Shown: positions 2,808 through 59,346, counted from the first letter of the stretch. The stretch is DNA of 64,000 nt from Malacoraja senta (GCA_038087875.1 CM075987.1:19656001-19720000), one strand, 5' to 3'. Notes: generated by a model from the sequence alone, not told the origin. Numbers and translations are program-made.

Positions 2808-2949
2808 TTCTTCTTCTTCTTGAGTATGGCGTGCACAGCCTAAAGTTGTAGGTCAACTTGTTCTATTTGATCTATTTGTTTGTGCACGTCGGGTTGATTG
2901 CATTAGTCGAAACAGGGTGGACTACGTGAAGGTTGCAATCTCCCACCCC
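2808..2949 (-). mobile_element. Short retroposon with 5' HDV-like ribozyme, 3' hairpin and (AAG)n tail
   Basis: The minus strand starts GGGGTGG and ends CAAGAAGAAGAAGAA. Internal CGTGCACA/TGTGCACG stem. Flanks ATTTCCCCC (2799-2807) and AATTCCCCC (2950-2958) match 8/9, a candidate TSD. Confidence 0.75.
2896..2949 (-). ncRNA. Minimal HDV-like self-cleaving ribozyme motif
   Basis: P1 GGGGUGG/CCACCCU with first G-U wobble; P2 GAUUGCA/UGCAAUC; P3 ACC/AGU (one mismatch); L3 UUCACGU; tiny P4 (U-UUCG-A); J4/2 CUAA. Confidence 0.75.
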
Positions 2950-3403
2950 AATTCCCCCTGCAGCTAAGAGTTTCAACATCCCAGTGGTTTAAATTCTTTT
3001 TGATCTAAAATGACCCAATGATTACATGTATCCATTGTGTTTTAACATTTGCATTAATTTTTTCATGAAGATTTTAGCCTCAAACAATAACTTGGGCTTG
3101 CAGTTGATATTTATCTAGGTATGCAAGAGCACGAGTTGTTGGGTCCAACACTCTGCAAGTGGGGGAAATTGAGTGCATAACATCTATCAGTAGTGTGTAC
3201 TTCCTTTCTTCAACTTCCTGCTTATTAGGCTATCTTCAGTCACTCATTTGGAAAACAAACGATCACAAATTAGAAGTTTGATTTTAGTGAAATTCGTGAT
3301 GTCCGTTTTTTCCCAACAAAGTAGCATTGATCTTGTGTGTAAATGAGGGAGAAAACATAGGGTACTCGTCACTCCAGTAGTTATTTTGTAATTTCTAAAA
3401 TAA

Positions 3404-4245
3404 CTCCTGCTCTCCACACCTGGAACACCTGGCTGTGAAGTGCCGTCCCTTCTACCTACCAAGGGAATTCACCTTCATCATCCTGACCGCGGTCTACATC
3501 CTTCCCCAGCCTGATGTCCATCTGGCACTGGGGGAGCTGCACGCCGTGGTCAATAAGCACCAGACGGCTTACCCCGAGGCATTTACCATCAGAGCCGGGG
3601 ATTTTAACAAAGCCAACCTTAAGAAATCGCTCCCTGACTTCCACCAACATGTCTCCTGCAGCACCAGAGGACCAAACACCCTCAGCCATTGCTACACCAC
3701 CATTAAGGATGCCTATCGTTTTATCCCTTGCCCTCACTTTGGTAAATCCGACCATACCGCGGTGCTGCTTCTTCCTGCCTACAGGCAGCAATTGAAGAGC
3801 GCACCCCCTGAGGTGAGGTCTGTTCAGAGCTGGGGGGTGGGGGGGGGGGGCTGAGGAACAACTCCTGGACTGTTTGGAGTCTGTAGACTGGGCAATGTTC
3901 AGGGACTTGGCAACGGACCTGAACGAATACGCCACAGTCGTTACAAACTTTATAAAGAAATCTGTGGAGGACTGCATCCCAACAAAAACCTTCCAAGTGT
4001 TTACCAATCAGAAGTCTTGGATGAACTATGAGATCCCCACTCTTCTGAAGACCAGACACCGGCATTCATGTCCGAAGATACAGCGGTCTACAAGAAGTCC
4101 AGATACGACCTTGGTAAGGTCATCAAAAAGGCCAAAAGGGACTTTTGCCCCAAGCTGGAGGATGAGACGGATGTTCGACAACTGTGGCGGGGCTTGAATG
4201 CCATCACTTCCTACAAGGTCTCTTGAATCTTGAATCTTGAATCTT
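3404..4245 (+). mobile_element. Rex1/Babar-like LINE fragment (APE endonuclease C-terminal half plus linker), frameshifted
   Basis: ORFs 3435-3854 (CRPFYLPREF..AVYI..GDFN..HCY..GKSDH) and 3874-4197, broken at a G-run. Ends in a (TCTTGAA)n tail at about 4221-4245. Confidence 0.8.
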
Positions 4246-4654
4246 AAACTGGCAGGTAGAGAGGTGGTGAGAGAGATACAGTGGGAGGGAGAGAGCAGCA
4301 AGAGAGAGAGAGAGATAGTGAGAGGGGAGCAGGTGAGAGGGAGATTCAGTGAGAAGGCAGAGGAAAGTGAGAGAGTATCTTTCAACACATGTTTGGTGTA
4401 AAAACAAAGTTAAATTCTGAAGCCAACTAGTGGATGGAACCAGTTTCTGTTGACAGAAAAAAGGTCAGTGGTAACAGTGGAGTGTACCATGTCTAAATGT
4501 CCAAGACAAGGAGCGAGAGTTAGACTGGAAGGTGCAAAGATATTCTTATTCTAATTTGCTTTTATAATAATCTCATATTGAAATTAATTAAACCTTGCAG
4601 AAAATATGAGAGAAATGAGATTCAGAGATTTATGCCTCCCTCTTACTTTATATT

Positions 4655-4910
4655 TCACTCCTCTTTGCTCCTTATCTGACACCCTTTTGTCTCCTTTTCA
4701 TCTCTAGCTTTTCTCACTATCTGCTTATCAATCCTGACTCGCCTGTATCCACCTATCACTTGCCGGGTTTTGTCCTGCCCCAACCTCTCTTTTCCAGCTT
4801 TCTTCCCCCAACTACAATCGCTCTGAAGAACGGTTCCAAACCAAAATGTTCCCTCCACTCCATTCCCTCCACAATTGCTGCCTCGTGCACTGAGTTAATC
4901 CAGCACTTAC
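4655..4910 (+). mobile_element. Degenerate Penelope-like 3' end / pLTR fragment
   Basis: Pyrimidine-rich tract, then a decayed CTGAAGAA..hairpin..AAAATGT motif and CTGAGTTA.TCCAGCA, as in the better-preserved copies in this window. Confidence 0.55.
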
Positions 4911-6782: not shown

Positions 6783-6913
6783 TTGTGTAGGATAGAACTG
6801 CAGATGCTGGTTTAAATTGAAGGTAGACACAAAATGCTGGAGTAACTCAGCGGGACAGGCTGCATCTATGGAGAGAAGGAATGGGTGATGTTTCAGGTCG
6901 AGACCCTTCTTCG
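6783..6913 (-). mobile_element. Solo Penelope pLTR fragment (about 130 bp)
   Basis: Same terminal repeat as 5608-5704. GACCTTATGTA is duplicated at 6772-6782 and 6914-6924. Confidence 0.75.
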
Positions 6914-6926
6914 GACCTTATGTAGT

Positions 6927-7215
6927 GTTTAGTTTAGAGATACATACAGCTTGGAAGGAGGCCCTTCAGCCCACCGAGTCCATGCTGATCATTGATCACC
7001 CCTACACACACTTGTTATATGTTATCCAACCTTTGCATCCACCTCCTGCATACTGGGCCAATTTACAGAAGCCAATTAATCTATGAACCAGCACGTCTTT
7101 GGGATGTGGAGGAAAGCGAACCACACAGTCACAGAGACAACCTGCAAACTCTACGCAGACAGCACCCGAGGTCAGGGTCGAACCCAGCTCTGGCGCTGTG
7201 GGGCTGCTACTCATC
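6927..7215 (-). mobile_element. tRNA-derived SINE (shark HE1-like), degenerate; repeated at +8858
   Basis: (TTTAG)n tail, and on the minus strand a B-box-like GGTTCGACCC near the head. Related pieces at about 32005-32265, 50380-50650, 58260-58485, 60481-60550 and 63760-63875. Confidence 0.7.
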
Positions 7216-8459
7216 TGTGCCGATTTCCTCTGTAATCTTTGATCCCGCCATAGCGCAGCTACCCTTCTGATTGGCATCGAGAAGGGTTGACGTGCTTGCT
7301 GAACCTACGTTGGCTCAAACCTGAGTGACTCCTTGTCCAATCTCACCGCACTCTTGCCCCACCCCATCTCTTCATCCTTCGCCAGCCCTCTCATCCTCCA
7401 GGATATCTACTTGCCAGTTCTGACCTCTGTACACCTCTAATTTGCTTTTCTATGACTGGCCTCTTGGTCAACTTTAATCTCTCCACCATTTTGCAGCTCA
7501 GATTATAGATGGAAGGACATTAAGCATTGACATTTGCCCCTACATCCCACTCACCTGCTTCTTATAACCTATTGCTTTCACCAAAGATTTGGTGGTCTCT
7601 CTTAATAGGTACCTCAGCATCAGGTAGTGGTTGTTTTTGGAAAAATTCTGCTTCATTACGCATCAAGGTGCAAGTTGCTGTGATGCAGTGGATGGGCCTG
7701 AAGGCTGAACGGTATCAAGGTCAGAAAAATCCAAACATTCTCAGGCATGTTTGTGCAGCAAGATCTGTGAGCCAGGACTCTGTGGTACAGGAGCTATAAG
7801 CTCAGCCTTGTTTTGTATCAGCAGCTGTAGCATGTGACTTAATCCGGCACTCCCACATCAACATAACAGGATGGAGTTAATGTAAGCATTCACTGGGATG
7901 AGTGTAACACTGTGTTCAAGTCCTGGTAGCTAACAGCAGACAAAGGAAGCAATAAAGAAATGGGTGCAATTTTCCAACATTTCGTGTGAAAATATTGCTT
8001 CTGGCATTAAAGACTGGCAGCCACTGTAATACACTCTTTTTAGATTTTTGTTTTACAGAGTTGCTTTTATATTCTTGATTATTTTGTTACAGCTGAGTGA
8101 TAAACTCTCGGTGGAGCATAATAGTGAACTGTGAAGCAGTTCCTAATAGGTTTCAGCACAAGTCCAAGAAACAGGAAGAAAGCCTTAAATGCATAAAAAA
8201 TCCCAAACCAGTCTGAGCAGGGCAGCAGCTGGTACTGGAGAAGCACAAGTGTTTAAGATTCACTCTTAATTTCTCTTTGCTGAACCAAATTACACAAACC
8301 TTAGCTGGTAAATGGAAATGTCAGAGATTTTCTTATATATATTCACCCACAAGATGTGGATGCTGCTGTTAAGGCTATACAGATCGTCCATCACTAATCT
8401 CACCTGAAGTGAATGGCTTGTCAAAGGACAATTAGGCTTCAACCCCCATTAATGGGTAG

Positions 8460-9120
8460 GACGTAGAACAGTACAGCAGGCCCTTCACCTCACGATATCT
8501 GCCAAACATGATGCCAAGTTAAACTAATCACCTTTGCCTGTACGTGATCCATACCACCCCCCATTCTCTGCATATCCATTTGCCTATCTAAAAGCCTCTT
8601 ATATGCCACTATTGTATGCACCTTCACCACCACCCCAGGCCGTACGTTCCAGGCACGCACCACTTTACGTGTAAAACTTTTCCTGCACATCTCCTGTAAA
8701 ATGCCACCTTAAAGCTACAGCGTCTAGTCTTTCCACCTTAGGAAAAAGGTTCTGACTGTCACCCTTATCCATGCCTCTCATAATTTTAGATGCTTCTATC
8801 CGGTCTTTCCTCAACCTCCGACGCTCCAGATAAAACAATCCAAGTTTCTCCAACCTGTCCTTATAGCCAATACCCTCAAGTCCAGGCAGCATTCTGGTAA
8901 GTCTCTTCTGCACCCTCCCACAACCCTCTACATCTTTCCTGTGATAGGGGGTCCAGAACTGCACACATTACTCCAAATGCGGTCTAACCAATGTCCTATA
9001 AAACTGCAACATGACTACCTGACTCTTATACTCAATTGTGTGACCAATGGAGCAAGCATACCATACGCCATCTTTACCACTCTGTCTACTTGCGTTGCCA
9101 CTTTCAGCGAACTACGTACT
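8460..9120 (-). mobile_element. CR1 LINE 3' fragment; repeated at +8858
   Basis: ORF remnants QFWTPYHRKD..RVQKRLTRMLPGL..RRRLR and FTRKVVRAWN, typical of the CR1 ORF2 C-terminus. Confidence 0.85.
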
Positions 9121-9329
9121 TGGATTAATTTATTATAACCCAGAAAGAGGATATTTAGCCCTTTTGATCCTTTCCAGCTCTCAACTGAGCAATCCCATTC
9201 CTCATCTCATTATTTCCCTGTAGTGCTGCAACTTATTTCATATTTTCTCTCACATGCCATTAAATCCTCTTCAACTGGTAACCCACACTAAGGAATAGTA
9301 ACCTCCCAGCATACCAACAGCATCACAGA

Positions 9330-9508
9330 AAGAATGTATTCAAGAGAGAGTTAGATATAGCTCTTAGGGCTAACGGAATCAAGGGATATGAGGAGAAAGG
9401 AGGAATGGGGTACTGATTTTGGATGATCAGCCATGATCATATTATATGGCGGTGCTGGCTCGAAGGGCCGAAAGGCCTACTCCTGCACCTATTTTCTATG
9501 TTTCTATG
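9330..9508 (+). mobile_element. CR1 LINE extreme 3' end; repeated at +8858
   Basis: Matches the 3' ends at 28670-28843 and 30515-30671, including the (TTCTATGT)n tail. Confidence 0.8.
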
Positions 9509-11524
9509 TGCAAACTCCAATGGAGAACCCATGAAGTCAAAATCGAACCTCAGCCCCTAACATACATTTAATTAGGTGAAATGTAGTTACTGTTTTAATG
9601 CAGCAAATGTGATACCCAGGAAGCTGCTGGGAACAGTGAGGTCTGGTCACTTGTTTTGGCGATGTTTACGGAGTGACACAATAAACCTGCTCTTTGCAGC
9701 AGTGCATGGAGTCTTTTGTGCCCATCAAGAGGGAAGCACTCAGTTTAATTCATCCAACAAATGGTACCTCCGACAGAGCAGTCCTTCCTCAGTAAAGGCA
9801 TTATGCTCAACCATAGTCAGCCTGAAATACATGCTGATCAGTGGAAAAGGACTCAGTCGCATGACTACCTGGCACTGAAAAACCTGCACATTGGTCGGAG
9901 TCTACAGCGTAATATGAAAATCATATAAAAAGGCAAGGTGAATCAAAGTCGTATTCATTGAGTTTAAAAACCCATGGAAAGTAGGACGAATGGAAGACCT
10001 GAAGGAGGTTCACATTTTTTTTTCTGAACAGTCTCATATTTGTATTCATTAAATATTTTGCTTGTGTAAAATTCTTCCCACAGTTTCGGAGTGAAATCCC
10101 ACTGGTGAAGTCATTATATTACTCACTCTTCCCTCTACTGAATGTTTCTCAGCTGTTTCTTGTTCCACTATACTCAGTGCTAACCTATTTAGGCTGCTTG
10201 ATTTTGTTTTTCCTCCAGGAACGGCAGGTAAATTATGTAACTGGGGACTTCAACTTCCTGTGCTGAGTCCTAGTCCCCATCAGTTAGAATTCAAAAGTGT
10301 TTTTTTAATCAGGGAAACACAATTTCTGGGGGAAAGCAGTAGCTCTTAAATCTGCAGCAGCTTCATTTTCCCCCACAGAGTTCTTGCGTGGAAAAGAGAA
10401 ATCATAATGTCAACCCTTTAATCAACAGGGAACTGATCAGAGAAGGAGGACTTGGTTGTAAACCATGCACGAGACAAATTATGAAATCTCTGTAAGAGGC
10501 AAAATATAATTCATTCCCCCCCCCCCCCCACCCCTCTTCCCCATGCTCTTCGACTGACACACGACAAGCAATTATTATTCATTTTGACTATTCTGAAACT
10601 TTTTATCTCCATCTCAATTCCCCCTTAATCTGTCCCCGTTCAATTAAGTTAGTGCTTGATTTGCGACTCACAGGCATTAAAGAGCCTTTTCTCTGTGCAA
10701 AAATAACTTGGGCTGCTGTCCTGGAAATGCGATTACAGTAGATACATTTAATAAAATGGCAAGCAGTTAGTCCAGTTTATTTTATTGATATTCCGACTAA
10801 CAATATCTGCTAAGTTCTGAAATGGGCAGTTTGTTGGCAACAGGAAAGCTGTCGGTGGGGAATGTGTTTGAGAAAATATTACCATAACGAGTGAGAGAAG
10901 CCTTTCTTAAATCTCGTGTTATTCTATGGCTAGGTATGTGGTTGAATTGTAAGAGATCGAATGAGTAAACACAGGTGATTGTTTATTTATATTGTTGTTG
11001 ATGGCCGCGTTCCAGGTAATCGAGCCAATTTCCTCAGTGCCAAGATTGCTCCTGAACGGACAGTTTGCCAAGGAGTTTCAGTCTGTGCAACAGCTTTGAT
11101 TAATTAGGCTGTAGATTTAGCAGAGTAAGTTCCATCAAGGTTAAATTAATCATTTTCAGTCTACAGCCTTTAACTTCAAAATCACAATTCAAGGAATGAT
11201 ATGGTCAGTCATTCGCCTACCAAAGATCCAAATTCACAAGGCACTGTGCTTAATATGTTGTACTTATTTCTTTGAAAACTGTTGAAATTATTCTAAATTA
11301 GTACCGAAAAACATTGTTGTACCATTGAGATGGCATTGTTTGTGTTTTAAATTTGGTTGAAGTGAGTTTTCTAATATACTGGCATATGTGGATTATATCT
11401 GGAAAATGAAATAAGCGTTGATGTGGGGCAAAAGTTTAGTTGTGTTTGCACATTCATTGATTGATTTTCTGGGAAGTGTAATGGACTGCAGCGTTTAATG
11501 CCTACTTTCCTTATAACTACAAGA

Positions 11525-11950
11525 GTTAGGTTTAGGTTTATTATTGTCATGCGTGCCGAGGTGCAGTGAAAAGCTTTGTTTTGCTATCCAAACAGATCAA
11601 ATATACCATGCATGAAAACAATCAAGTCAAACTGAAGTAAAATAGATAGAGCAAAGTGGAAGATTCAGAATGCAGAATATAGTTTTCAACATTATACCAC
11701 ACAGTAGCACACCAGTTCCTTAGACAAAGTCCAATGTCCATAAGCCTGATAACAGAGGGGAAGAAGCTGTTTCTGACTCTGGCTGTGTGCGCTTTCAAGA
11801 TTCTGTACCTTTTGCAGGACGGTAGTAGAAGAAGGAATGACCAGAGTGGGAGAAGTCTTTGATTATGTTGGCTGCTTTTCTGAAGTGTGAAATATAGATG
11901 GAGTCAATGATGGGGAAGACTGGTCTATGTGATCTACACCCAGTACATGC
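11525..11950 (-). mobile_element. Rex1/Babar-like LINE 3' fragment; repeated at +8858
   Basis: IDSIYISHFRKAANIIKDFSHSGH remnant. Tail matches the ends of 44005-44840 and 45815-47240. Confidence 0.7.
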
Positions 11951-12223
11951 CATTTTATCAAGTTCACAAATGTCACAGAGTTCAGTTGTGCTGGGGCAGT
12001 GGGTCACAAAGTGACTATTTTTTTAAACATGTTTTATCACACAATATTGACCTTCCCCAATCTGATGTAATATGGGCAAGAATCGAGGTGACGTTCTTTC
12101 TAATCCGAGCAATACACTTTAATTACACAACAGAACAAATCTTTCCCAACTCTCCAGTTTGACATTACCTATTCCCTCAGTAATAGATAATTTGCTTCTG
12201 TGAGTGAACATGGTGAGTGAACA

Positions 12224-12356
12224 CAGTCTGAAGAAGGGTCTTGACCCGAAATGTCACCCATTCCTTCTCCCCAGAGATGCTGCCTGTCCCGGAGTTATTC
12301 CAGCATTTTGTGTCTACCTTCGATTTAAACCAGCAAATTCAGTTGTTTCCTACACA
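12224..12356 (+). mobile_element. Solo Penelope pLTR fragment starting at the hammerhead motif; repeated at +8858
   Basis: CAGTCTGAAGAAGGGTCTTGACCCGAAATGTCACC...CAGCATTTTGTGTCTACC. Confidence 0.75.
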
Positions 12357-15300
12357 TGGTAGTTTAGATTCAGCTTCTACTTTATTAAAAGATGTTTCAT
12401 CCCAGGATGTGGTCTCTGCTGGCAGTATCACACTCGTTGCCTATTCCAAGTGCACTATGTACATTTGGGGAGAACTCTGCGGTACTGGAGCAATAAATAG
12501 GTTAATCTGGGTAGGAGTGATATTTAGTGATTTTGCATGTATTTAGTGATTTTATTTTTTTACAGATCTAAGAACCTTAAAGAGACCTTTCATTTCCATT
12601 TTATTTAGTGCCAGCTCAGAAATGACCAGATTTACTGTATTTAAATTCCCAACATGTTGGCATTTGAATTCCCAACTTCAGGATTGGTTATCCAGGTTCA
12701 AAAGTCCATATCTCCTGCTTTCCGATCTTCCTTTGGAGACCAGAAACGAGCCCCTACTGAATTCCTTTAAATGAAAGAACTGTAGAAGTTATAGACGTTT
12801 AACTCGTCAGTCTACCGATATCCATTGTCTGCAGATCCAGCAGATTAATAAAGAGAATTGTATTTCAATGGGATTGGTGAAGTGATTTGCTGCAATGAAG
12901 CAATGTGCCCCATGGCAAATCTGTTAATTTCAACACATTTCTGGGGCAAGTTGCCACTTAATTATTGCAAATTTTATGTTTAAAAAAATATCCTGGTTGT
13001 AATAAAAATCAGTTGGGTATAGGTCAGCAATGGTTTAAATTATTATTGAAATAAGTACACTGGGATTGCGTAGCGTGCATCTGATTGAGCTCCTGCAACT
13101 CTCCTATGTGGCACAGTTTTTTGCTCAGGCAATGTTGTCATGTGAGCCTTTTTGTGCTGGGCTGCACTCGTGGCAAAATTTTACATTGAATTTTCTCACA
13201 CCAAACAATCTGCCCTCAAATAGTATCCTTAAGATGGACATTAAATGGGAGTGAGTATTAAAGGAGATAGTTTTGGGCAGTGTTTAATAGCGAAGGAGAG
13301 TGAAGCAGACACATTGAAGGAGTAAATAGGATATAGCTTAGTGCCTACAAATTAAATCCATTGATTTAAGAGCAGTGAAAACCAGGGATATACAATTGGA
13401 TGAAAGCAGCAATCACAAAAAAAGCAGTAGATGCAGGGGAGGCAACTGAGGAAGTGACAGGAGAAGCCATTTAGGATTTTGGTAACAAGATTGCGAATTG
13501 GCGCATCAAGAGTTGTTGCAGGTTAGCAACTAGGCATTATGGGTAAATGAGGTGTGGTGTAAATTGAAATGTGGGACAACAGAGTTTTGTCATGGAGTCA
13601 TACAGCACGGGAACAGGCCCTTCAGCCCAACTCGTCCATGTCAACCTTAATGCCCCATCTAAGCTTATCTCATTTGCCTGTGTTTGGCCCATATCCCTCA
13701 AAACCTTTCCGATCCACCTATCTGTCCAGATGTCTTTTAAATGTTATTGTACCTCCATCAACTATTTCCACTTGTCAAGGTAAGTATTTGCATAGTGAAG
13801 AGCAAATATTTAGGGTTCTGAGGTTGACTGAGGTGATGAACAAGGTCTCTGGGCGATGTTCAGAAGATTGTCTGGTTTGATTCCCTCCTGTAATGTTCAC
13901 TGCATGGCCTTAAAGAGTAAACAGATCTTTGACTGATTACTTGAAGCTTGTGTTGCGAGGGGTGGCGCAAGATACCTTGTGGATAAGGCTAACACTGTTA
14001 AGTTTGGAGGGTCTCTCTTGCTGCAATTGAGCTGTGCTGCTTCTAGTTTGATTGGAGTATATGTTTCTTATATTTGTGAGGCCTTAAAAGGGGTATCAGC
14101 TGTGCTGAGATATTTTAAAATTTGTTTAAGATTGATTTGATCCAAGCAGACACAGAGTGCACAACATTAGAGGAATTATAGACCGGAAGACAGAGAGAGA
14201 CTAGGAAATGCCAGTCAGATCGCACTAGTTTCCCAATGATGTCGATGTGTGAGGGAGCAATTTGCTCCCATACCTGCTCCTCCTCTCTATGGCTTGGAAA
14301 TGTCAATTTCAAATAAAAATCACCAGTCAAATATAATAACTGAAACGTGCAAAACGGTAGCACTCTTCTGTTTTAACAGCACATTCCCATTGGCACCAGC
14401 TTTGCATTGGTTCTAAAGCTCTTGCAATTGGAATGTATTTGCACAATCACGTCATGGCAGGCCATCACTGAAATCCACTTTGGCAGGTAAAAGGTAGCAA
14501 CAGAGGAAAACATGCCCTTCATTCTGCGGCTCTAAGCACAAACCCACAGATTTATAAGAAACAAGAGAGGAGGCCTTTCAGCCTGTCAAGCCTGTTCTAG
14601 CAGTAAACAAGGTAATGGCTGATTTGATCTTGACCTCTGCTTATTGCCCATTTCCACAACCTTTCACTCCCCAATGAGTAAACAAACACTTTCTAAAGTT
14701 TAAAAATATATTCAACTACCCAGTTTCTACAACTGTCTGGGGTAGAGAATTACAAAGATTCGCATCCGTCAGAGAGAAAACAAAAGTCATCATCTTCATC
14801 CTTAATGGGCAGTTGTTTACTTTGACACCATACCCCATTTCTATGTAAACCCACAAGGGAATAGATCCTCCGAGCATCTCCGAGCCCTTCTATGCTCCCT
14901 CTTTCTCATGCTTGAGACTTCTTTGACCAAGCTTTGTCATCTGTCCTAATATTTGGTCATGTATCATGTATCCGAATAATTCCCTATGTGATGGAGCACC
15001 AGACTCTGTTTCATAGTCATTACCATGAGGTGCTCATGTAAAAGGTTAATTGTATTGTACACACTGATTCCTCATTCATGACAGAATTTCATTCCCAATA
15101 TTAGTATATCCGTCCTTAATTTTACGTAATATTCCGGCTGCAGTCTCACCAACAGACCATTCATGCAGCGAGATGGAACCATGGCAGGGTTTACAGAGTC
15201 ACTACCATTATAGCAAACAGAGTTACTTAAATAAAATTTGTGTAAAAATGGAAATGTTTCCCAATAAAAGTGGTATTATTTCTCCAACAGAATGGTATGA

Positions 15301-15460
15301 GTTGCGAAAATTACATAATAATTGTACATAAATCCCAAAGCAGTTACTTAAAGCAGTGTGGGCTCTAGGCATGTTTAATGAATTTGGGTGTGTGGGGGTT
15401 GGGGAGGTAGGAGAGGAGAATTACCCAACCATCTCTATTGCGGCAAAGGACTTGCAGTGT

Positions 15461-15660
15461 NNNNNNNNNNNNNNNNNNNNNNNNNNNNNNNNNNNNNNNN
15501 NNNNNNNNNNNNNNNNNNNNNNNNNNNNNNNNNNNNNNNNNNNNNNNNNNNNNNNNNNNNNNNNNNNNNNNNNNNNNNNNNNNNNNNNNNNNNNNNNNNN
15601 NNNNNNNNNNNNNNNNNNNNNNNNNNNNNNNNNNNNNNNNNNNNNNNNNNNNNNNNNNNN
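15461..15660. other. Assembly gap (200 N)
   Basis: Run of 200 N. Confidence 1.
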
Positions 15661-18600
15661 GATGCTGGTTTAAATTGAAGGTAGACACAAAATGCTGGAG
15701 TAACTCAGCGGGACAGGCTGCATCTATGGAGAGAAGGAATGGGTGATGTTTCAGGTCGAGACCCTTCTTCGGACCTTATGTAGTGTTTAGTTTAGAGATA
15801 CATACAGCTTGGAAGGAGGCCCTTCAGCCCACCGAGTCCATGCTGATCATTGATCACCCCTACACACACTTGTTATATGTTATCCAACCTTTGCATCCAC
15901 CTCCTGCATACTGGGCCAATTTACAGAAGCCAATTAATCTATGAACCAGCACGTCTTTGGGATGTGGAGGAAAGCGAACCACACAGTCACAGAGACAACC
16001 TGCAAACTCTACGCAGACAGCACCCGAGGTCAGGGTCGAACCCAGCTCTGGCGCTGTGGGGCTGCTACTCATCTGTGCCGATTTCCTCTGTAATCTTTGA
16101 TCCCGCCATAGCGCAGCTACCCTTCTGATTGGCATCGAGAAGGGTTGACGTGCTTGCTGAACCTACGTTGGCTCAAACCTGAGTGACTCCTTGTCCAATC
16201 TCACCGCACTCTTGCCCCACCCCATCTCTTCATCCTTCGCCAGCCCTCTCATCCTCCAGGATATCTACTTGCCAGTTCTGACCTCTGTACACCTCTAATT
16301 TGCTTTTCTATGACTGGCCTCTTGGTCAACTTTAATCTCTCCACCATTTTGCAGCTCAGATTATAGATGGAAGGACATTAAGCATTGACATTTGCCCCTA
16401 CATCCCACTCACCTGCTTCTTATAACCTATTGCTTTCACCAAAGATTTGGTGGTCTCTCTTAATAGGTACCTCAGCATCAGGTAGTGGTTGTTTTTGGAA
16501 AAATTCTGCTTCATTACGCATCAAGGTGCAAGTTGCTGTGATGCAGTGGATGGGCCTGAAGGCTGAACGGTATCAAGGTCAGAAAAATCCAAACATTCTC
16601 AGGCATGTTTGTGCAGCAAGATCTGTGAGCCAGGACTCTGTGGTACAGGAGCTATAAGCTCAGCCTTGTTTTGTATCAGCAGCTGTAGCATGTGACTTAA
16701 TCCGGCACTCCCACATCAACATAACAGGATGGAGTTAATGTAAGCATTCACTGGGATGAGTGTAACACTGTGTTCAAGTCCTGGTAGCTAACAGCAGACA
16801 AAGGAAGCAATAAAGAAATGGGTGCAATTTTCCAACATTTCGTGTGAAAATATTGCTTCTGGCATTAAAGACTGGCAGCCACTGTAATACACTCTTTTTA
16901 GATTTTTGTTTTACAGAGTTGCTTTTATATTCTTGATTATTTTGTTACAGCTGAGTGATAAACTCTCGGTGGAGCATAATAGTGAACTGTGAAGCAGTTC
17001 CTAATAGGTTTCAGCACAAGTCCAAGAAACAGGAAGAAAGCCTTAAATGCATAAAAAATCCCAAACCAGTCTGAGCAGGGCAGCAGCTGGTACTGGAGAA
17101 GCACAAGTGTTTAAGATTCACTCTTAATTTCTCTTTGCTGAACCAAATTACACAAACCTTAGCTGGTAAATGGAAATGTCAGAGATTTTCTTATATATAT
17201 TCACCCACAAGATGTGGATGCTGCTGTTAAGGCTATACAGATCGTCCATCACTAATCTCACCTGAAGTGAATGGCTTGTCAAAGGACAATTAGGCTTCAA
17301 CCCCCATTAATGGGTAGGACGTAGAACAGTACAGCAGGCCCTTCACCTCACGATATCTGCCAAACATGATGCCAAGTTAAACTAATCACCTTTGCCTGTA
17401 CGTGATCCATACCACCCCCCATTCTCTGCATATCCATTTGCCTATCTAAAAGCCTCTTATATGCCACTATTGTATGCACCTTCACCACCACCCCAGGCCG
17501 TACGTTCCAGGCACGCACCACTTTACGTGTAAAACTTTTCCTGCACATCTCCTGTAAAATGCCACCTTAAAGCTACAGCGTCTAGTCTTTCCACCTTAGG
17601 AAAAAGGTTCTGACTGTCACCCTTATCCATGCCTCTCATAATTTTAGATGCTTCTATCCGGTCTTTCCTCAACCTCCGACGCTCCAGATAAAACAATCCA
17701 AGTTTCTCCAACCTGTCCTTATAGCCAATACCCTCAAGTCCAGGCAGCATTCTGGTAAGTCTCTTCTGCACCCTCCCACAACCCTCTACATCTTTCCTGT
17801 GATAGGGGGTCCAGAACTGCACACATTACTCCAAATGCGGTCTAACCAATGTCCTATAAAACTGCAACATGACTACCTGACTCTTATACTCAATTGTGTG
17901 ACCAATGGAGCAAGCATACCATACGCCATCTTTACCACTCTGTCTACTTGCGTTGCCACTTTCAGCGAACTACGTACTTGGATTAATTTATTATAACCCA
18001 GAAAGAGGATATTTAGCCCTTTTGATCCTTTCCAGCTCTCAACTGAGCAATCCCATTCCTCATCTCATTATTTCCCTGTAGTGCTGCAACTTATTTCATA
18101 TTTTCTCTCACATGCCATTAAATCCTCTTCAACTGGTAACCCACACTAAGGAATAGTAACCTCCCAGCATACCAACAGCATCACAGAAAGAATGTATTCA
18201 AGAGAGAGTTAGATATAGCTCTTAGGGCTAACGGAATCAAGGGATATGAGGAGAAAGGAGGAATGGGGTACTGATTTTGGATGATCAGCCATGATCATAT
18301 TATATGGCGGTGCTGGCTCGAAGGGCCGAAAGGCCTACTCCTGCACCTATTTTCTATGTTTCTATGTGCAAACTCCAATGGAGAACCCATGAAGTCAAAA
18401 TCGAACCTCAGCCCCTAACATACATTTAATTAGGTGAAATGTAGTTACTGTTTTAATGCAGCAAATGTGATACCCAGGAAGCTGCTGGGAACAGTGAGGT
18501 CTGGTCACTTGTTTTGGCGATGTTTACGGAGTGACACAATAAACCTGCTCTTTGCAGCAGTGCATGGAGTCTTTTGTGCCCATCAAGAGGGAAGCACTCA

Positions 18601-21600
18601 GTTTAATTCATCCAACAAATGGTACCTCCGACAGAGCAGTCCTTCCTCAGTAAAGGCATTATGCTCAACCATAGTCAGCCTGAAATACATGCTGATCAGT
18701 GGAAAAGGACTCAGTCGCATGACTACCTGGCACTGAAAAACCTGCACATTGGTCGGAGTCTACAGCGTAATATGAAAATCATATAAAAAGGCAAGGTGAA
18801 TCAAAGTCGTATTCATTGAGTTTAAAAACCCATGGAAAGTAGGACGAATGGAAGACCTGAAGGAGGTTCACATTTTTTTTTCTGAACAGTCTCATATTTG
18901 TATTCATTAAATATTTTGCTTGTGTAAAATTCTTCCCACAGTTTCGGAGTGAAATCCCACTGGTGAAGTCATTATATTACTCACTCTTCCCTCTACTGAA
19001 TGTTTCTCAGCTGTTTCTTGTTCCACTATACTCAGTGCTAACCTATTTAGGCTGCTTGATTTTGTTTTTCCTCCAGGAACGGCAGGTAAATTATGTAACT
19101 GGGGACTTCAACTTCCTGTGCTGAGTCCTAGTCCCCATCAGTTAGAATTCAAAAGTGTTTTTTTAATCAGGGAAACACAATTTCTGGGGGAAAGCAGTAG
19201 CTCTTAAATCTGCAGCAGCTTCATTTTCCCCCACAGAGTTCTTGCGTGGAAAAGAGAAATCATAATGTCAACCCTTTAATCAACAGGGAACTGATCAGAG
19301 AAGGAGGACTTGGTTGTAAACCATGCACGAGACAAATTATGAAATCTCTGTAAGAGGCAAAATATAATTCATTCCCCCCCCCCCCCCACCCCTCTTCCCC
19401 ATGCTCTTCGACTGACACACGACAAGCAATTATTATTCATTTTGACTATTCTGAAACTTTTTATCTCCATCTCAATTCCCCCTTAATCTGTCCCCGTTCA
19501 ATTAAGTTAGTGCTTGATTTGCGACTCACAGGCATTAAAGAGCCTTTTCTCTGTGCAAAAATAACTTGGGCTGCTGTCCTGGAAATGCGATTACAGTAGA
19601 TACATTTAATAAAATGGCAAGCAGTTAGTCCAGTTTATTTTATTGATATTCCGACTAACAATATCTGCTAAGTTCTGAAATGGGCAGTTTGTTGGCAACA
19701 GGAAAGCTGTCGGTGGGGAATGTGTTTGAGAAAATATTACCATAACGAGTGAGAGAAGCCTTTCTTAAATCTCGTGTTATTCTATGGCTAGGTATGTGGT
19801 TGAATTGTAAGAGATCGAATGAGTAAACACAGGTGATTGTTTATTTATATTGTTGTTGATGGCCGCGTTCCAGGTAATCGAGCCAATTTCCTCAGTGCCA
19901 AGATTGCTCCTGAACGGACAGTTTGCCAAGGAGTTTCAGTCTGTGCAACAGCTTTGATTAATTAGGCTGTAGATTTAGCAGAGTAAGTTCCATCAAGGTT
20001 AAATTAATCATTTTCAGTCTACAGCCTTTAACTTCAAAATCACAATTCAAGGAATGATATGGTCAGTCATTCGCCTACCAAAGATCCAAATTCACAAGGC
20101 ACTGTGCTTAATATGTTGTACTTATTTCTTTGAAAACTGTTGAAATTATTCTAAATTAGTACCGAAAAACATTGTTGTACCATTGAGATGGCATTGTTTG
20201 TGTTTTAAATTTGGTTGAAGTGAGTTTTCTAATATACTGGCATATGTGGATTATATCTGGAAAATGAAATAAGCGTTGATGTGGGGCAAAAGTTTAGTTG
20301 TGTTTGCACATTCATTGATTGATTTTCTGGGAAGTGTAATGGACTGCAGCGTTTAATGCCTACTTTCCTTATAACTACAAGAGTTAGGTTTAGGTTTATT
20401 ATTGTCATGCGTGCCGAGGTGCAGTGAAAAGCTTTGTTTTGCTATCCAAACAGATCAAATATACCATGCATGAAAACAATCAAGTCAAACTGAAGTAAAA
20501 TAGATAGAGCAAAGTGGAAGATTCAGAATGCAGAATATAGTTTTCAACATTATACCACACAGTAGCACACCAGTTCCTTAGACAAAGTCCAATGTCCATA
20601 AGCCTGATAACAGAGGGGAAGAAGCTGTTTCTGACTCTGGCTGTGTGCGCTTTCAAGATTCTGTACCTTTTGCAGGACGGTAGTAGAAGAAGGAATGACC
20701 AGAGTGGGAGAAGTCTTTGATTATGTTGGCTGCTTTTCTGAAGTGTGAAATATAGATGGAGTCAATGATGGGGAAGACTGGTCTATGTGATCTACACCCA
20801 GTACATGCCATTTTATCAAGTTCACAAATGTCACAGAGTTCAGTTGTGCTGGGGCAGTGGGTCACAAAGTGACTATTTTTTTAAACATGTTTTATCACAC
20901 AATATTGACCTTCCCCAATCTGATGTAATATGGGCAAGAATCGAGGTGACGTTCTTTCTAATCCGAGCAATACACTTTAATTACACAACAGAACAAATCT
21001 TTCCCAACTCTCCAGTTTGACATTACCTATTCCCTCAGTAATAGATAATTTGCTTCTGTGAGTGAACATGGTGAGTGAACACAGTCTGAAGAAGGGTCTT
21101 GACCCGAAATGTCACCCATTCCTTCTCCCCAGAGATGCTGCCTGTCCCGGAGTTATTCCAGCATTTTGTGTCTACCTTCGATTTAAACCAGCAAATTCAG
21201 TTGTTTCCTACACATGGTAGTTTAGATTCAGCTTCTACTTTATTAAAAGATGTTTCATCCCAGGATGTGGTCTCTGCTGGCAGTATCACACTCGTTGCCT
21301 ATTCCAAGTGCACTATGTACATTTGGGGAGAACTCTGCGGTACTGGAGCAATAAATAGGTTAATCTGGGTAGGAGTGATATTTAGTGATTTTGCATGTAT
21401 TTAGTGATTTTATTTTTTTACAGATCTAAGAACCTTAAAGAGACCTTTCATTTCCATTTTATTTAGTGCCAGCTCAGAAATGACCAGATTTACTGTATTT
21501 AAATTCCCAACATGTTGGCATTTGAATTCCCAACTTCAGGATTGGTTATCCAGGTTCAAAAGTCCATATCTCCTGCTTTCCGATCTTCCTTTGGAGACCA

Positions 21601-30671: not shown

Positions 30672-30689
30672 ATATCATCATCACTCCAG

Positions 30690-55905: not shown

Positions 55906-56173
55906 TAAGAAAGAACTGCAGATGCTGGTTTAAATCGAAGGTAGACACAAAATCTAACTTCTAACTTCAGATAGCTCTTGCTTTCTCTCTCCATCCCTTC
56001 CCCTTCCCAGTTCTCCCACTAGTCTTACTGTCTCTGCCTACATCCTATCTTTGTCCTGCCCCCTCCCCTGACATCAGTCTGAAGAAGGGTCTCGACCCAA
56101 AACGTTGCCCATTCCTTTTCTCCAGAGATGCTGCCTCGCCCGCTGAGTTACTCTAGCATTTTGTGTCTACCCT
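55906..56173 (+). mobile_element. Penelope-like 3' fragment with inverted pLTR piece at its 5' side
   Basis: 12-bp TSD ACTTAATTGAGG (55894-55905; 56174-56185). 55906-55953 is inverted pLTR sequence. Mutated hammerhead at 56075-56109. Confidence 0.85.
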
Positions 56174-56729: not shown

Positions 56730-56982
56730 AGGGCCTGTCCCACGGCGATTTTTTCGGCGACTGCCAGCATCATTGACTGACGTATCAGGTCACCGAAAAA
56801 TTTGCGGCGTGATGCAATGTGACGCGCAGTGACGCGGCGTAATGACGTATGACGCGCAGTGTTTTTCAAGTGTCGCAACATTTTTTTTTGTCGCTGCTGG
56901 ATTTTGAAATGTTAAAAATCTTTTGGCGACACTGATATGACGTTGACAGTCGCCGAAAAAATTGCATAGTGGGACAGGCCCT
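56730..56982. mobile_element. PIF/Harbinger-type MITE, copy 2
   Basis: TIR AGGGCCTGTCCCAC / GTGGGACAGGCCCT, TAA on both sides, same interior as 1235-1481. Confidence 0.85.
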
Positions 56983-57224
56983 TAAGACTTTTGGGATTCG
57001 ATACAATTTAGCATTACAGCAACAAAACTGGGTGTTTTCACCAGCGTTCTCAAGTCTTTCCAATATGTTTACAGTGATAGATTCTGAGATTTGTGTAAAT
57101 GGGTGGCTGAATGTGGGCCGCAGGGCCTGTTTGGGTTGTTTCTCTATAACTGGAATTCATAAATCATAGGAGCAGAATTAGGCCATTCGGCCCATCAGGT
57201 CTACTCCACCATTCAATCATGGCT

Positions 57225-57905
57225 CCCTCCGTAACTCCCTTGTCAATTCTTCCCTTCCCTCCCATACCACCCCCTCCCCTGGTACTTTCCCTTGCAACCG
57301 CAAGAGATGGAACACTTGTCCCTTCACCTCCCCCCTCCACTCCATTCAAGGACCCAAGCAGTCGTTCCAGGTGCGACAGAGGTTCACCTGCATCTCCTCC
57401 AACCTCATCTATTGCATTCGCTGCTCTAGATGCCAGCTGATCTAACATCGGTGAGACCAAGCGGAGGCTTGGCGATCGTTTCGCCGAACACCTCCGGTCG
57501 GTCCGCAATAACCAACCTGAACTCCCGGTGGCTCAGCACTTCAACTCCCCCTCCCATTCCGTATCTGACCTCTCTGTCCTGGGTCTCCTCCATGGCCACA
57601 GCGAGCAACACCGTAAATTGGAGGAAATGCACCTCATATTTCCGCTTGGGCAGTCTACATCCTGGTGGCCTGAACATTGAATTCTCCCAATTCTGCTAGC
57701 CCTGGCTGTCCCCTCCCCTTCATCAGCCATCTGGTTGTCTCCTTCCCTCCCCAGCCCTCGGGCTCCTCCTCCGCCTTTTCCTTTTTTCCTTTCTTCTCCC
57801 CACCCCCTATCAGTCTGAAGAAGGGTTTCGGCCTGAAACGTTACCTATTTCCTTCGCTCCATAGATGCTGCTGCACCCGCTGAGTTTCTCCAGCATTTTT
57901 GTGTA
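57225..57905 (+). mobile_element. Penelope-like element 3' fragment inserted in a CR1 3' end
   Basis: Highly similar to 47432-48003 on the opposite strand. 15-bp TSD CATTCAATCATGGCT (57210-57224; 57906-57920). Hammerhead motif at 57811-57845. Confidence 0.9.
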
Positions 57906-59149
57906 CATTCAATCATGGCTGATCTTTCTTTCCTCTCAACCCCATTCTAATGCATTCTCCCCATAACCGTTGACACCCTTACTGATCAGGAATCTGTCAA
58001 TCTCCACCTTAAAATTACCCAATGACTTGGCCTCCACTGCTTTGTGGCAAAGAATTCCACCGATTCACCACCATCTGACTAAAGAAATCCCTCCTCATCT
58101 CCCTTGTAAATCCTGCTTTAAGGACCAGTATGTGAGCTTCCCCTTATTATTTAAAATTTATCAACAAATGGAATCTTCATTTTGTTTCTTCTCTTGATCT
58201 TCTGCAGATTTCCTGCCCCAAGAGTTACTTCAGTGGATGTTCAAGAAAGTAAAGATTGAGAACTGTCTGTACGGAGTTTGTATGTTCTCCCCGTGACCTG
58301 CGTGGGTTTTCTCTGAGATCGTCGGTTTCCTCCACACTCCAAAGATGTACAGGTTTGTAGGTAAATTGGCTTGGTAAAATTGTCCCCAGAGTGGTGTAGG
58401 ATAGTGTTAATGTGTGGGGATCACTGGTCGGCGCGGACCCGATGGGCCAAAGGGCCTGTTTCCACGCTGTATCTCTAAACTAAACAAAAAAAAGATAAGT
58501 GAGTGCGATTTAGAAGAGATCACGGTAACAGAGTGGTTTAGAATTTTACAGCTCTCTGTGGCAGTACAGGGATGCTGTGCCATGACATGTGAGATGTTTC
58601 ACCCAGAGTATTGGTATTGGATTATTATTGTCACATTGTACAGTGAAAAGCATTTTCTTTGTGTGCTATCCAATTGGAACAGATTATATTATTCATGAGC
58701 ATGATCAAGCAATACACTAGTGCAACAGGTAATGCAAAGAGACAAATACTGGAGCGCGGAATACAGTTTCATAGCCTTGTAGCAGTACAGTAAAAATACA
58801 TTGTCCTCCCAACACTTCTACATTGTCCTCTCCTCCCAGTGACCTGATCCTGTCTGCTTGAACTCGGGAATGCTCAGAATAGCTCTCATGATCCCCTGCC
58901 CATCACAGGTCCTTCATGTGACATTCCCTTGTTTAGATAGTATGTGAAGGACTGTTTTCAGAAAATGATTAGAAAAGACCAAAGATTGCTCTGTTTCCTA
59001 CGTTGCCTTCATCAGGTGTTTGAACATTTCTGCTCTGAAAGTGAGAGGTCTCAGTCCAATATCAACTACTTTATAGGGCATTTCTCTGGGTCCCATAGGC
59101 TCCCTGTGATATTTAAGTTTTTAACGGGCTTTCATCTCAGAGTGCAGAG

Positions 59150-59346
59150 ATCTTCATCTTCTTATCAATCTTCATCTTCTTATCGAGTCCACACACAAGA
59201 TTAGAAGTTGTTCAGCCAGAGCTGAACACACTTCTCGGCATCTGCATACAATGGTGTCTGTCTTGCGCTTCTTGTGCTTCTTGTGCGTGGTGGTGGAAAG
59301 ATTGGTGGAAACAGGGCCGCAACGTGAACGCTCTTTCCTTGACCCC
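59150..59346 (-). mobile_element. Second short retroposon with 5' HDV-like ribozyme, structured body and GAAGA-rich tandem tail
   Basis: The minus strand starts GGGGTC. 12-bp stem CCACGCACAAGA/TCTTGTGTGTGG enclosing a GTTCAGC/GCTGAAC hairpin. Tail is GATAAGAAGATGAAGAT twice. No clear TSD. Confidence 0.7.
59295..59346 (-). ncRNA. Minimal HDV/CPEB3-like self-cleaving ribozyme motif
   Basis: P1 GGGGUC/GGCCCU (6 bp, first G-U); P2 GGAAAGA/UCUUUCC; P3 GCG/UGC; L3 UUCACGU; tiny P4 (U-UUCC-A); J4/2 CCAA. Confidence 0.78.

What the first reader, a model, noticed from the sequence alone, without database searches (positions are those of the whole stretch)
2896..59346. Compensatory changes between the two HDV-like motifs
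Seen: the motifs at 2896-2949 and 59295-59346 share the unpaired or catalytic parts (GGGGU start, L3 UUCACGU, CCCUGUUUC, J4/2 CYAA). The helices differ but stay paired: P2 GAUUGCA/UGCAAUC versus GGAAAGA/UCUUUCC, and P3 5' strand ACC versus GCG. Both continue into a GCACA-containing long stem and an AAG-rich tail. Inference: two subfamilies of one architecture (ribozyme + LINE-recognition stem + tail) under selection for RNA structure, so a system rather than a chance fold.
Basis: partly seen in the sequence, partly recalled or inferred. Interest (0 to 1): 0.8.

Follow-up and report, generated by a model that had tools for sequence, protein, structure and literature searches.

The report
Self-cleaving ribozyme heads short retrotransposons
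Two short repeated elements in this window each begin with a small self-cutting RNA of the hepatitis-delta/CPEB3 type inherited from RTE-like jumping genes, a known way for such elements to trim their own 5' ends; the same genome also holds multi-copy full-size look-alikes of the mammalian CPEB3 ribozyme at the heads of such jumping genes.

Summary
Both motifs lie on the minus strand at the stated coordinates. They fit a P4-less HDV-like fold, and no dinucleotide shuffle of the window does (0 of 200).

Between the two family consensus sequences, 8 of 16 aligned pairs change on both sides and none is broken. Unpaired bases are 17/20 identical.

Each motif is the first 52-54 nt of a short repeat, about 140 or 175 nt long. 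Each repeat has at least 2,000 candidate copies, and target-site duplications abut G1 and the (AAG)n tail.

Family 1 is an internal-deletion derivative of an RTE-like LINE. It keeps the LINE's 5' ribozyme and 26 nt of 5'UTR, then the LINE's last ~36 nt. No parent LINE was found for family 2.

In both families, the segment after the ribozyme pairs with the segment before the tail.

This is a new member of a known kind: HDV-like ribozymes at RTE 5' ends, and "bipartite" non-autonomous LINEs.

One result was unexpected. The Rfam mammalian CPEB3-ribozyme model hits this genome at up to 64 bits (cut-off 35). The two matches read sit 45 nt before the start of another RTE-like ORF. The window motifs look like P4-less offshoots of that lineage.

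Self-cleavage itself was not tested.

The parts
2807..2949 (-). Family-1 element, whole copy: ribozyme, 5'UTR piece, LINE 3' end and (AAG)5 tail.
   Evidence: 40 of 40 scored genomic matches (2902 first-look candidates) are 95-100% identical. They begin at query 5-14 (G1 is query 12) and end at 147-171 (in or just past the tail; 171 is the window's own copy); contigs of 4 runs cover about 2798-2951 only.
2896..2949 (-). Family-1 HDV-like ribozyme without P4. P1 is 2943-2949 with 2914-2920. P2 is 2934-2940 with 2896-2902. P3 is 2931-2933 with 2921-2923 (C.A mismatch at 2923 in this copy). L3 is 2924-2930. J4/2 CUAA is 2903-2906, with the presumed catalytic C at 2906.
   Evidence: The consensus copy L030 aligns end to end to RF02682 at 17.5 bits, E 0.39, with P4 replaced by 5 nt.
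2881..2888 (-). 5' arm (CGUGCACA) of the closing stem, derived from the LINE 5'UTR.
   Evidence: Fold. The same segment follows the ribozyme in LINE copy L093.
2830..2837 (-). 3' arm (UGUGCACG) of the closing stem, derived from the LINE 3' end.
   Evidence: Fold. The same segment ends LINE copies L078 and L091 just before their tails.
2807..2821 (-). (AAG)5 tail of copy 1.
   Evidence: CTT x5 on the + strand.
2950..2959 (.). Target-site duplication of copy 1, upstream copy (AGGGGGAATT on the minus strand). The downstream copy AGGGGGAAAT is at 2799-2808.
   Evidence: 8-nt exact core; 10 nt with one mismatch.
59150..59346 (-). Family-2 element, whole copy. Its tail is atypical: an 18-mer repeated about twice at 59150-59184.
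   Evidence: 40 of 40 scored matches (2186 candidates) are 95-100% identical. They begin at query 6-15 (G1 is query 15) and end at 186-201; the window's own copy, the query, is matched over its whole length (1-241)..
59295..59346 (-). Family-2 HDV-like ribozyme without P4. P1 is 59341-59346 with 59313-59318. P2 is 59332-59338 with 59295-59301. P3 is 59329-59331 with 59319-59321. L3 is 59322-59328. J4/2 CCAA is 59302-59305, with the presumed catalytic C at 59305.
   Evidence: Partial RF00622 match of 24 bits, E 6.8e-4. The consensus copy L057 matches RF00622 end to end at 28.8 bits, E 6.2e-6.
59279..59290 (-). 5' arm (CCACGCACAAGA) of the closing stem of copy 2.
   Evidence: 12-bp stem, z -3.5 for the window copy and -3.1 for L057.
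59189..59200 (-). 3' arm (UCUUGUGUGUGG) of the closing stem of copy 2.

Best explanation
Each motif is the 5'-terminal, P4-less HDV-like (CPEB3-type) self-cleaving ribozyme of a short non-autonomous retrotransposon. These elements arose by internal deletion of an RTE-like LINE (a 'bipartite non-autonomous LINE', or SIDE).

Inferred life cycle:
1. The element is transcribed as part of whatever transcript runs through it.
2. The ribozyme cuts just 5' of G1 and so sets the RNA's 5' end.
3. The RTE-type endonuclease/reverse transcriptase, supplied in trans, primes on the 3'-terminal ~36 nt plus the (AAG)n tail.
4. It copies the RNA up to G1, leaving a target-site duplication.

Shown here:
- the fold and its compensatory changes
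- that the repeats begin at G1
- the target-site duplications
- descent of family 1 from a LINE that bears the same ribozyme at its 5' end

Inferred only:
- catalytic activity
- co-transcription
- which protein mobilises the elements
- any role of the closing stem
For: Fold. A structure-only descriptor hits only these two sites, and 0 of 200 shuffles at <=1 mismatch.

Consensus of family 1 against family 2:
- 16 aligned pairs: 7 identical, 1 changed on one side (U-A to U.G), 8 changed on both sides, 0 non-canonical
- unpaired bases 17/20 identical, paired bases 15/32 identical

The count of structure pairs on 16 rows:
- 93.8% of cells paired, against 75.4% in shuffles (0 of 500 reach the observed value)
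- 38-54% when the 3' partners are slid
- covariation score 0.482 against 0.191 (0 of 500)
- both-sided changes in 5 of 7 P2 pairs, 2 of 3 P3 pairs and 1 of 7 P1 pairs

A covariance model built from family 1 alone finds the family-2 copies and nothing else in 105,798 bases (16 matches). Rfam HDV-type models align both consensus copies end to end, with P4 replaced by 5 nt and CNAA on the model's J4/2.

5' end. All 40 + 40 scored copies start within a few nt of G1. Exact target-site duplications of >=7 nt that end within 3 nt of G1 occur as follows:
- family 1: 26 of 30 copies, 19 of them abutting G1 exactly; control 0 of 30
- family 2: 18 of 30 copies, 13 abutting exactly; control 1 of 30

Parent LINE of family 1:
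- L093 has ribozyme nt 9-54, 26 nt of shared 5'UTR, 26 nt of LINE-only 5'UTR, then an ATG opening an endonuclease ORF.
- L078 and L091 end in the same ~33 nt plus a tail. The ORF stop lies inside CAACUUUAGG, and RVT_1 is found.
- A second deletion derivative keeps LINE-only 5'UTR. It gives 75 pattern hits against 0 in the reversed-pattern control. All 4 copies read start at G1 with target-site duplications.

The head is not a pol III type: ARAGORN finds nothing.
Against: - No cleavage or RNA 5'-end data were available. Only contigs could be laid, so no starts could be seen.
- Neither window copy reaches an Rfam gathering score.
- The covariation reflects one split between two lineages. The alignment used was fitted to P2+P3 by a model. 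Seven of its 16 rows came from a pattern that forces a mutation at column 48.
- The copies examined for 5' ends were the top-scoring ones, which favours full-length copies.
- No LINE copy starting exactly at G1 was read; L093 lacks the first 8 nt.
- No parent LINE was found for family 2.
- 4 of 30 family-1 copies and 12 of 30 family-2 copies showed no exact duplication of >=7 nt.
Confidence: 0.8

Rival explanations
1. The conserved 5' 52-54 nt acts mainly at the DNA level as an internal promoter or start-site determinant. G1 would then be a transcription start and not a cleavage product. The first 77 nt of L1Tc are reported to be both a promoter and a ribozyme.
For: Repeats that begin at G1 fit a fixed start site equally well. 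The precedent comes from the abstract of PMC3383444, seen in the listing.
Against: A promoter does not explain 8 both-sided compensatory changes with 0 broken pairs while unpaired bases stay 17/20 identical. Nor does it explain the match to HDV-type covariance models. The two roles are not exclusive.
Confidence: 0.08
2. The fold is conserved for another RNA job, such as binding the LINE protein or starting translation of uncapped RNA. The P4-less forms would then no longer cleave.
For: The SINE-like derivatives have no ORF yet keep the fold. The title of Ruminski et al. 2011 (reference list; the paper itself is not held) links these ribozymes to translation initiation. Activity was not tested here.
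Against: The catalytic-core letters (L3, G after P1, C-N-A-A) are the best-kept positions. P4-less HDV-like ribozymes are reported as active or tolerated (passages of PMC3774820; PMC10879173). 5' ends coincide with the predicted cleavage site.
Confidence: 0.08
3. The resemblance to an HDV-like fold is chance in two unrelated repeats.
For: Neither window copy passes an Rfam gathering threshold.
Against: 0 of 200 shuffles fit the descriptor. A family-1 model finds family 2. A full-size relative in the same genome scores 64 bits against RF00622.
Confidence: 0.02

Closest known systems
HDV-like ribozymes at the 5' ends of non-LTR retrotransposons (R2, R4, RTE, LOA/baggins, L1Tc/ingi).
   Same: A nested double-pseudoknot ribozyme sits as the first nucleotides of the element, and the cleavage site equals the element's 5' end. 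RTE is among the clades reported. Sources: PMC5786205 section 23 read; passages of PMC6765202 and PMC3774820.
   Different: Here the ribozyme is a very small P4-less form. Its core is nearly that of the CPEB3 ribozyme, and most copies sit on ORF-less derivatives. I could not read which hosts and RTE families Ruminski et al. 2011 covered, because the paper is not held.
Bipartite ORF-absent non-autonomous LINEs / SIDEs (R2 SIDEs, NARTc, RTE-derived elements).
   Same: Only the 5' and 3' ends of the parent LINE are kept, joined by internal deletion, and the 5' ribozyme is retained. Sources: PMC5786205 section 23; abstracts of PMC3414825 and PMC3383444 in the listing.
   Different: Insertion is not site-specific, unlike R2 SIDEs. 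There are thousands of copies. The 5' and 3' remnants pair with each other in both families, a feature not mentioned in the passages I read.
Mammalian CPEB3 ribozyme (Rfam RF00622).
   Same: L3 UUCACGU, P3 GCG/CGC, the 3' strand of P1 and the following UGU are shared with family 2. A third ribozyme family in this genome matches the whole model at up to 64.2 bits (cut-off 35). Its P1 and P4 differ from the model consensus but stay paired.
   Different: [quoted passage not shown] Here the ribozymes are multi-copy, and the two full-size copies read sit at the head of RTE-like ORFs. The two window motifs lack P4, and family 1 does not match RF00622 at all.
Minimal (P4-less) HDV-like ribozymes: drz-Mtgn and theta ribozymes of gut phages; Bombyx R2; an abalone example.
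   Same: P4 is replaced by a few nucleotides, and the catalytic C lies in J4/2. Sources: passages of PMC10879173 and PMC3774820.
   Different: Theta ribozymes flank phage tRNAs. These head a eukaryotic retrotransposon.

Membership tests
HDV-like ribozyme fold | P1 of 6-7 bp beginning with a G1.U wobble at the cleavage site. | tested here: met
   7 bp in family 1 and 6 bp in family 2, with G1.U in 15 of 15 rows that have letters.
HDV-like ribozyme fold | P2 pairs the segment after P1 5' with the 3' end, crossing P1 (pseudoknot). | tested here: met
   7 bp in both families; 5 of 7 pairs changed on both sides.
HDV-like ribozyme fold | P3 of 3 bp closing a ~7-nt L3. | tested here: met
   ACC/GGU versus GCG/CGC, with L3 identical. 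Window copy 1 has one C.A mismatch.
HDV-like ribozyme fold | P1.1 between L3 and the bases right after P1. | tested here: inconclusive
   A G follows P1 and a C lies in L3 in both families. Neither varies, so there is nothing for or against.
HDV-like ribozyme fold | Catalytic cytosine in J4/2. | tested here: met
   CUAA / CCAA align to the J4/2 positions of RF02682 and RF00622. This is by sequence only.
HDV-like ribozyme fold | Self-cleavage 5' of G1. | not testable with these tools
   No raw RNA reads were available. It needs a bench assay.
CPEB3 ribozyme family (RF00622) | Score at or above Rfam's gathering score of 35 bits. | tested here: inconclusive
   - Window copy 2: 24 bits.
- Family-2 consensus L057: 28.8 bits.
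- Family 1: no match.
- Genome-wide: 39 of 59 scored candidates pass. These include 84-nt matches at 50-64 bits and 15 matches of 61-65 nt at 35-43.7 bits. L100 and L101 score 64.2 and 63.8 bits.
CPEB3 ribozyme family (RF00622) | Single-copy, intronic, in the CPEB3 gene of mammals. | tested here: not met
   The matches are multi-copy. Two of the two read lie 45 nt upstream of a LINE endonuclease ORF.
Bipartite non-autonomous LINE (SIDE) of an RTE-like LINE | Consists of the 5' end and the 3' end of an autonomous LINE, without an ORF. | tested here: met
   Met for family 1: the 5' 80 nt equal the L093 5' end and the last ~36 nt equal the L078/L091 3' ends. For family 2 no parent was found. It contains AUGCCGAGA..., like the parent's AUGCCACGA... 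start.
Bipartite non-autonomous LINE (SIDE) of an RTE-like LINE | Retroposition hallmarks: target-site duplication and a 3' repeat tail. | tested here: met
   (26 of 30 and 18 of 30 copies, against 0 and 1 of 30 in controls).
RTE clade of LINEs | Single ORF with an N-terminal AP-type endonuclease and a reverse transcriptase, no ORF1, a very short 3'UTR and a short-repeat tail. | tested here: met
   Pieced together from three broken copies: endonuclease in L093, RVT_1 in L091, and 18 nt between stop and tail in L078. That this feature list defines RTE is my recollection.
RTE clade of LINEs | The reverse transcriptase groups with RTE in a phylogeny. | not tested
   No reference LINE set was at hand.
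Classical SINE | Head derived from tRNA, 7SL or 5S with a pol III promoter. | tested here: not met
   ARAGORN finds no tRNA-like gene. The Rfam local searches around both copies list no tRNA, 7SL or 5S match; apart from the HDV-type ribozyme matches they show only weak matches far below gathering.

The most novel reading that the evidence does not exclude
The mammalian CPEB3 ribozyme would be a domesticated 5' ribozyme of an RTE-type LINE. This genome would still hold the mobile lineage in two forms. The full-size, P4-bearing form heads RTE-like ORFs and scores 64 bits against the Rfam mammalian model. The two window motifs are its P4-less offshoots. These elements would supply the missing outgroup for CPEB3-ribozyme evolution.

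A second, separate reading concerns the stem. The pairing between the 5'UTR segment behind the ribozyme and the 3'-terminal segment before the tail is kept in both families with different sequences. It could be a functional 5'-3' panhandle of RTE RNAs, which would explain why only deletion derivatives that keep both ends spread.
Probability: 0.3. Interest if true: 0.8.

Novelty: new member of a known kind. Interest (0 to 1): 0.5.

Why it matters
The finding as given is a clean, well-supported example of something already described in principle. A retrotransposon uses an HDV-like ribozyme to define its own 5' end, and ORF-less deletion derivatives ride on the same trick. It links 'bipartite non-autonomous LINEs' directly to a 5' ribozyme. 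[quoted passage not shown]

The wider interest lies in a by-product. Ribozymes pass the Rfam threshold for the mammalian CPEB3 ribozyme by almost 30 bits, occur here in many copies and, in the two copies read, sit at LINE 5' ends. The literature I could read says the CPEB3 ribozyme is unknown outside mammals and lacks outgroups. If the host is not a mammal, this offers a concrete, testable origin for that ribozyme. The host was not determined here.

Tried and rejected
- RNA evidence: the look-up of sequencing runs listed no RNA holder. Only contigs could be laid, so no starts or ends could be read. Parts without cover are not used as evidence.
- Rfam at gathering thresholds over the window: 0 matches.
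- A third ribozyme family with the same core, sought by pattern: 68 hits. All 30 that I read were mutated copies of the two families. The relaxed descriptor over 297,323 bases of loci found only known copies.
- Partial matches to the SINE 3' parts in the window and the first 60 loci: none.
- A genome-wide RVT_1 search gave 159,856 candidates, too broad to use, and its loci were not cut.
- L063/L064, which run on past the 3' arm: the continuation is an unrelated repeat.
- L094: an intact RTE-like LINE of 886 aa with a (TTGA)n tail and no ribozyme. It is not the partner.
- Family-2 parent LINE: the 'not-SINE' patterns gave only internally deleted or 5'-truncated SINE copies. L098 was a chance match. 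L099 was a truncated copy inside another repeat.
- Local partner for the LINE's 3' arm: folds of L091 and L078 3' regions show none of note, z -1.1 and +0.4.
- MAFFT misaligned the two families. Model R1 (P1+P3) misplaced the P2 3' strand. Model R2 was used instead.
- Earlier findings of the scan: nothing found.
- Ruminski et al. 2011 is not held.


Full report
**Observation**

Read 5' to 3', copy 1 (2949 down to 2896) runs as follows:
- P1 5' GGGGUGG
- GA
- P2 5' GAUUGCA
- P3 5' ACC
- L3 UUCACGU
- P3 3' AGU
- P1 3' CCACCCU
- GUUUCGA
- CUAA
- P2 3' UGCAAUC

Copy 2 (59346 down to 59295) has the same layout:
- P1 GGGGUC/GGCCCU
- P2 GGAAAGA/UCUUUCC
- P3 GCG/UGC
- CCAA as J4/2

Only 11 nt lie between P1 and P2 3', so there is no P4.

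I wrote a descriptor after the fact that asks only for this layout and for base pairing. It finds these two sites and nothing else in the window, and nothing at <=1 mismatch in 200 dinucleotide shuffles. A sequence pattern for the shared core had 68 genomic hits against 0 for the reversed control.

**What the motifs belong to**

Each motif is the start of a short interspersed repeat.
- With copy 1 plus flanks as query, the genome search (1.94 Gb, 6182 contigs) had 2902 first-look candidates. All 40 scored were 95-100% identical. They began at query position 5-14 (G1 is 12) and ended in or just past the tail.
- For copy 2 there were 2186 candidates. All 40 scored were 95-100% identical and began at 6-15 (G1 is 15).

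These top-scoring copies favour full-length elements.

In 30 + 30 copies read with flanks, I looked for exact target-site duplications of >=7 nt ending within 3 nt of G1.
- Family 1: 26 of 30 copies, 19 of them abutting G1 exactly. Controls taken 200 nt upstream gave 0 of 30.
- Family 2: 18 of 30 copies, 13 abutting exactly. Controls gave 1 of 30.

The family consensus repairs the flaws of the window copies: P3 is ACC/GGU in family 1 and GCG/CGC in family 2.

Contigs of four coded runs from four coded organisms cover the family-1 element from about 2798 to 2951. They read C at + strand 2923, which gives the paired G. Whether those runs are RNA is only a guess by the tool.

**Parent LINE of family 1**
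- Locus L078 holds a 5'-truncated LINE. Its ORF ends in a TAG inside CAACUUUAGG. After the stop come 18 nt and (AAG)3, so the last ~33 nt plus tail match the SINE's 3' end.
- L091 was chosen only for its long reverse-transcriptase frame. It ends the same way and has RVT_1.
- L093 is a further copy of the same LINE. It carries ribozyme nt 9-54 in the sense of the ORF, then the 26 nt that also follow the ribozyme in the SINE. Next come 26 nt of LINE-only 5'UTR and an ATG that opens an endonuclease domain.

Family 1 is thus the LINE's first 80 nt, a 13-nt linker and the LINE's last ~36 nt.

A second, independent deletion derivative keeps part of the LINE-only 5'UTR. It gave 75 pattern hits against 0 in the control. 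All 4 copies read start at G1 and have target-site duplications.

Copy numbers differ sharply. Only about 25 LINE copies of this lineage were seen among 150 scored candidates, at 73-87% protein identity. The derivatives number in the thousands.

I found no parent for family 2. Its body contains AUGCCGAGA..., which resembles the parent LINE's AUGCCACGA... start.

**Selection on structure**

Copies decay after insertion, so the informative comparison is between lineages. Comparing the two consensus sequences over 16 aligned pairs:
- 7 pairs are identical
- 1 changes on one side (U-A to U.G)
- 8 change on both sides
- none is non-canonical
- unpaired bases are 17/20 identical, against 15/32 for paired bases

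On a 16-row alignment made with a model of P2+P3, the count of structure pairs gave these results:
- 93.8% of cells paired, against 75.4% in shuffles (0 of 500 reach the observed value)
- 38-54% paired when the 3' partners are slid
- covariation score 0.482 against 0.191 (0 of 500)

Three caveats apply:
- There are two clades, hence one divergence.
- The alignment leans towards the structure it was fitted to.
- Seven rows came from the pattern, which forces a mutated column 48. That explains the 7 unpaired cells at pair 16-48.

A model built from family 1 alone found every family-2 copy offered and nothing else in 105,798 bases.

**The stem**

In both families, the segment 3-8 nt after the ribozyme pairs with the segment 7-9 nt before the tail:
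- Family 1: CGUGCACA/UGUGCACG, z -1.5 to -2.2.
- Family 2: CCACGCACAAGA/UCUUGUGUGUGG, z -3.1 to -3.5.

In family 1 the 5' arm is LINE 5'UTR and the 3' arm is the LINE's 3' end. The LINE's own 3' region offers no convincing local partner. A long-range 5'-3' pairing in the LINE RNA is therefore possible, but it remains an inference.

**A full-size relative**

The family-2 consensus aligns end to end to Rfam's mammalian CPEB3 ribozyme at 28.8 bits, with P4 replaced by 5 nt. I therefore ran that model over the genome.
- 51 of 59 scored candidates matched at E <= 1e-3.
- 39 matched above the 35-bit cut-off, the best at 64.2 bits.
- 14 matches of 79-89 nt include a P4.
- 15 matches of 61-65 nt score 35-43.7 bits. 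That is the length expected for family 2 plus the model's leader.
- One further match of that length, at 33.8 bits, lies 63 nt upstream of a family-2 3' end listed.

The two loci I read (L100, L101) pass Rfam's own gathering search at 64.2 and 63.8 bits. Their upstream flanks differ. About 45 nt downstream, an ATG opens a frame that stays open for 368 aa and has an endonuclease domain. That domain is 35-40% identical to those of the other RTE-like LINEs here.

The 5' half of this ribozyme is nearly the same as family 2. The two window motifs are best seen as P4-less members of a CPEB3-type ribozyme lineage carried by RTE-like LINEs.

**What is known**

- HDV-like ribozymes at the 5' ends of R2, R4, RTE, LOA and ingi-type LINEs are described, as are ORF-less bipartite derivatives of RTE, ingi/vingi and R2 (PMC5786205 section 23 read; passages of PMC6765202).
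- P4-less forms are known in Bombyx R2 and an abalone (passages of PMC3774820), and in phages (passages of PMC10879173).

The finding as given is therefore a new member of a known kind.

On the CPEB3 ribozyme:
- A review suggests in general terms that such conserved ribozymes were co-opted from mobile elements (passage of PMC7761336).
- My searches found no paper that names an RTE LINE as the source: 'CPEB3 ribozyme' + 'retrotransposon' (21 papers), 'CPEB3' + 'ribozyme' + 'RTE' (3 papers) and 'CPEB3-like' + 'ribozyme' (1 paper). For these I saw only listings and the passages cited. Subscription papers, including Ruminski et al. 2011 and Webb and Luptak 2011, are not held.

**Limits**

- No cleavage assay was run, and no RNA ends could be read.
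- The host taxon was not determined. From recall only, its commonest SINE looks like those of cartilaginous fishes.
As a result only two full-size ribozyme loci were read, no complete G1-starting LINE was read, and no family-2 parent was found.

Noticed in passing
G000 loci L100 (C21:8957960-8958260, minus) and L101+L102 (C1:217550415-217551700, plus); 39 genomic matches over cut-off: Multi-copy, full-size (P4-bearing) ribozymes score up to 64 bits against Rfam's mammalian CPEB3 model. In the two copies read they sit 45 nt upstream of the start codon of an RTE-like endonuclease ORF.
   Followed up: partly
window 2881-2888 with 2830-2837; 59279-59290 with 59189-59200: The closing stem pairs a LINE 5'UTR segment with the LINE 3'-terminal segment, and it is kept in both families with different sequences. 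In run X1 most contigs read C at + strand 2889 (G in the RNA). That would turn an A.C mismatch next to the family-1 stem into G-C.
   Followed up: partly
L078 1470-2900 and L091 2060-3946: Two 5'-truncated copies of the parent LINE carry an inverted piece of the ribozyme and 5'UTR at their 5' side, inside one target-site duplication (ATTGAATA; ACTGTACCTCA). Both inverted pieces end at the same base (...AAAUAGAU). They look like twin-priming events with a preferred internal priming site.
   Followed up: partly
window 6803-15460 and 15661-24318: Two 8,658-bp blocks are 100% identical and separated exactly by a 200-N gap (15461-15660). This is most likely an assembly duplication at a scaffold gap. 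A second 200-N gap lies at 60281-60480.
   Followed up: yes
window 34775-40212, minus strand: An L1-like LINE has an open 1194-aa ORF2 (endonuclease, RVT_1, weak zf-RVT) and a 356-aa ORF1-like frame with a weak Transposase_22 match.
   Followed up: partly
window 2709-2744: A fragment of a far more abundant repeat lies beside copy 1. Its summed contig depth is several to roughly ten times that of the ribozyme element in three of the four runs laid, and similar in the fourth (X15). Similar sequence recurs in the flanks of many loci.
   Followed up: no
L094 (G000:C6:42559100-42562800, minus): An intact RTE-like LINE (886-aa ORF with endonuclease and RVT_1) has a (TTGA)n tail and the same repeat at its 5' side. 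No ribozyme was detected in it.
   Followed up: partly
window 59261-59286 and family-2 copies: The 9-nt unit GCACAAGAA behind the family-2 ribozyme varies in number between copies.
   Followed up: no
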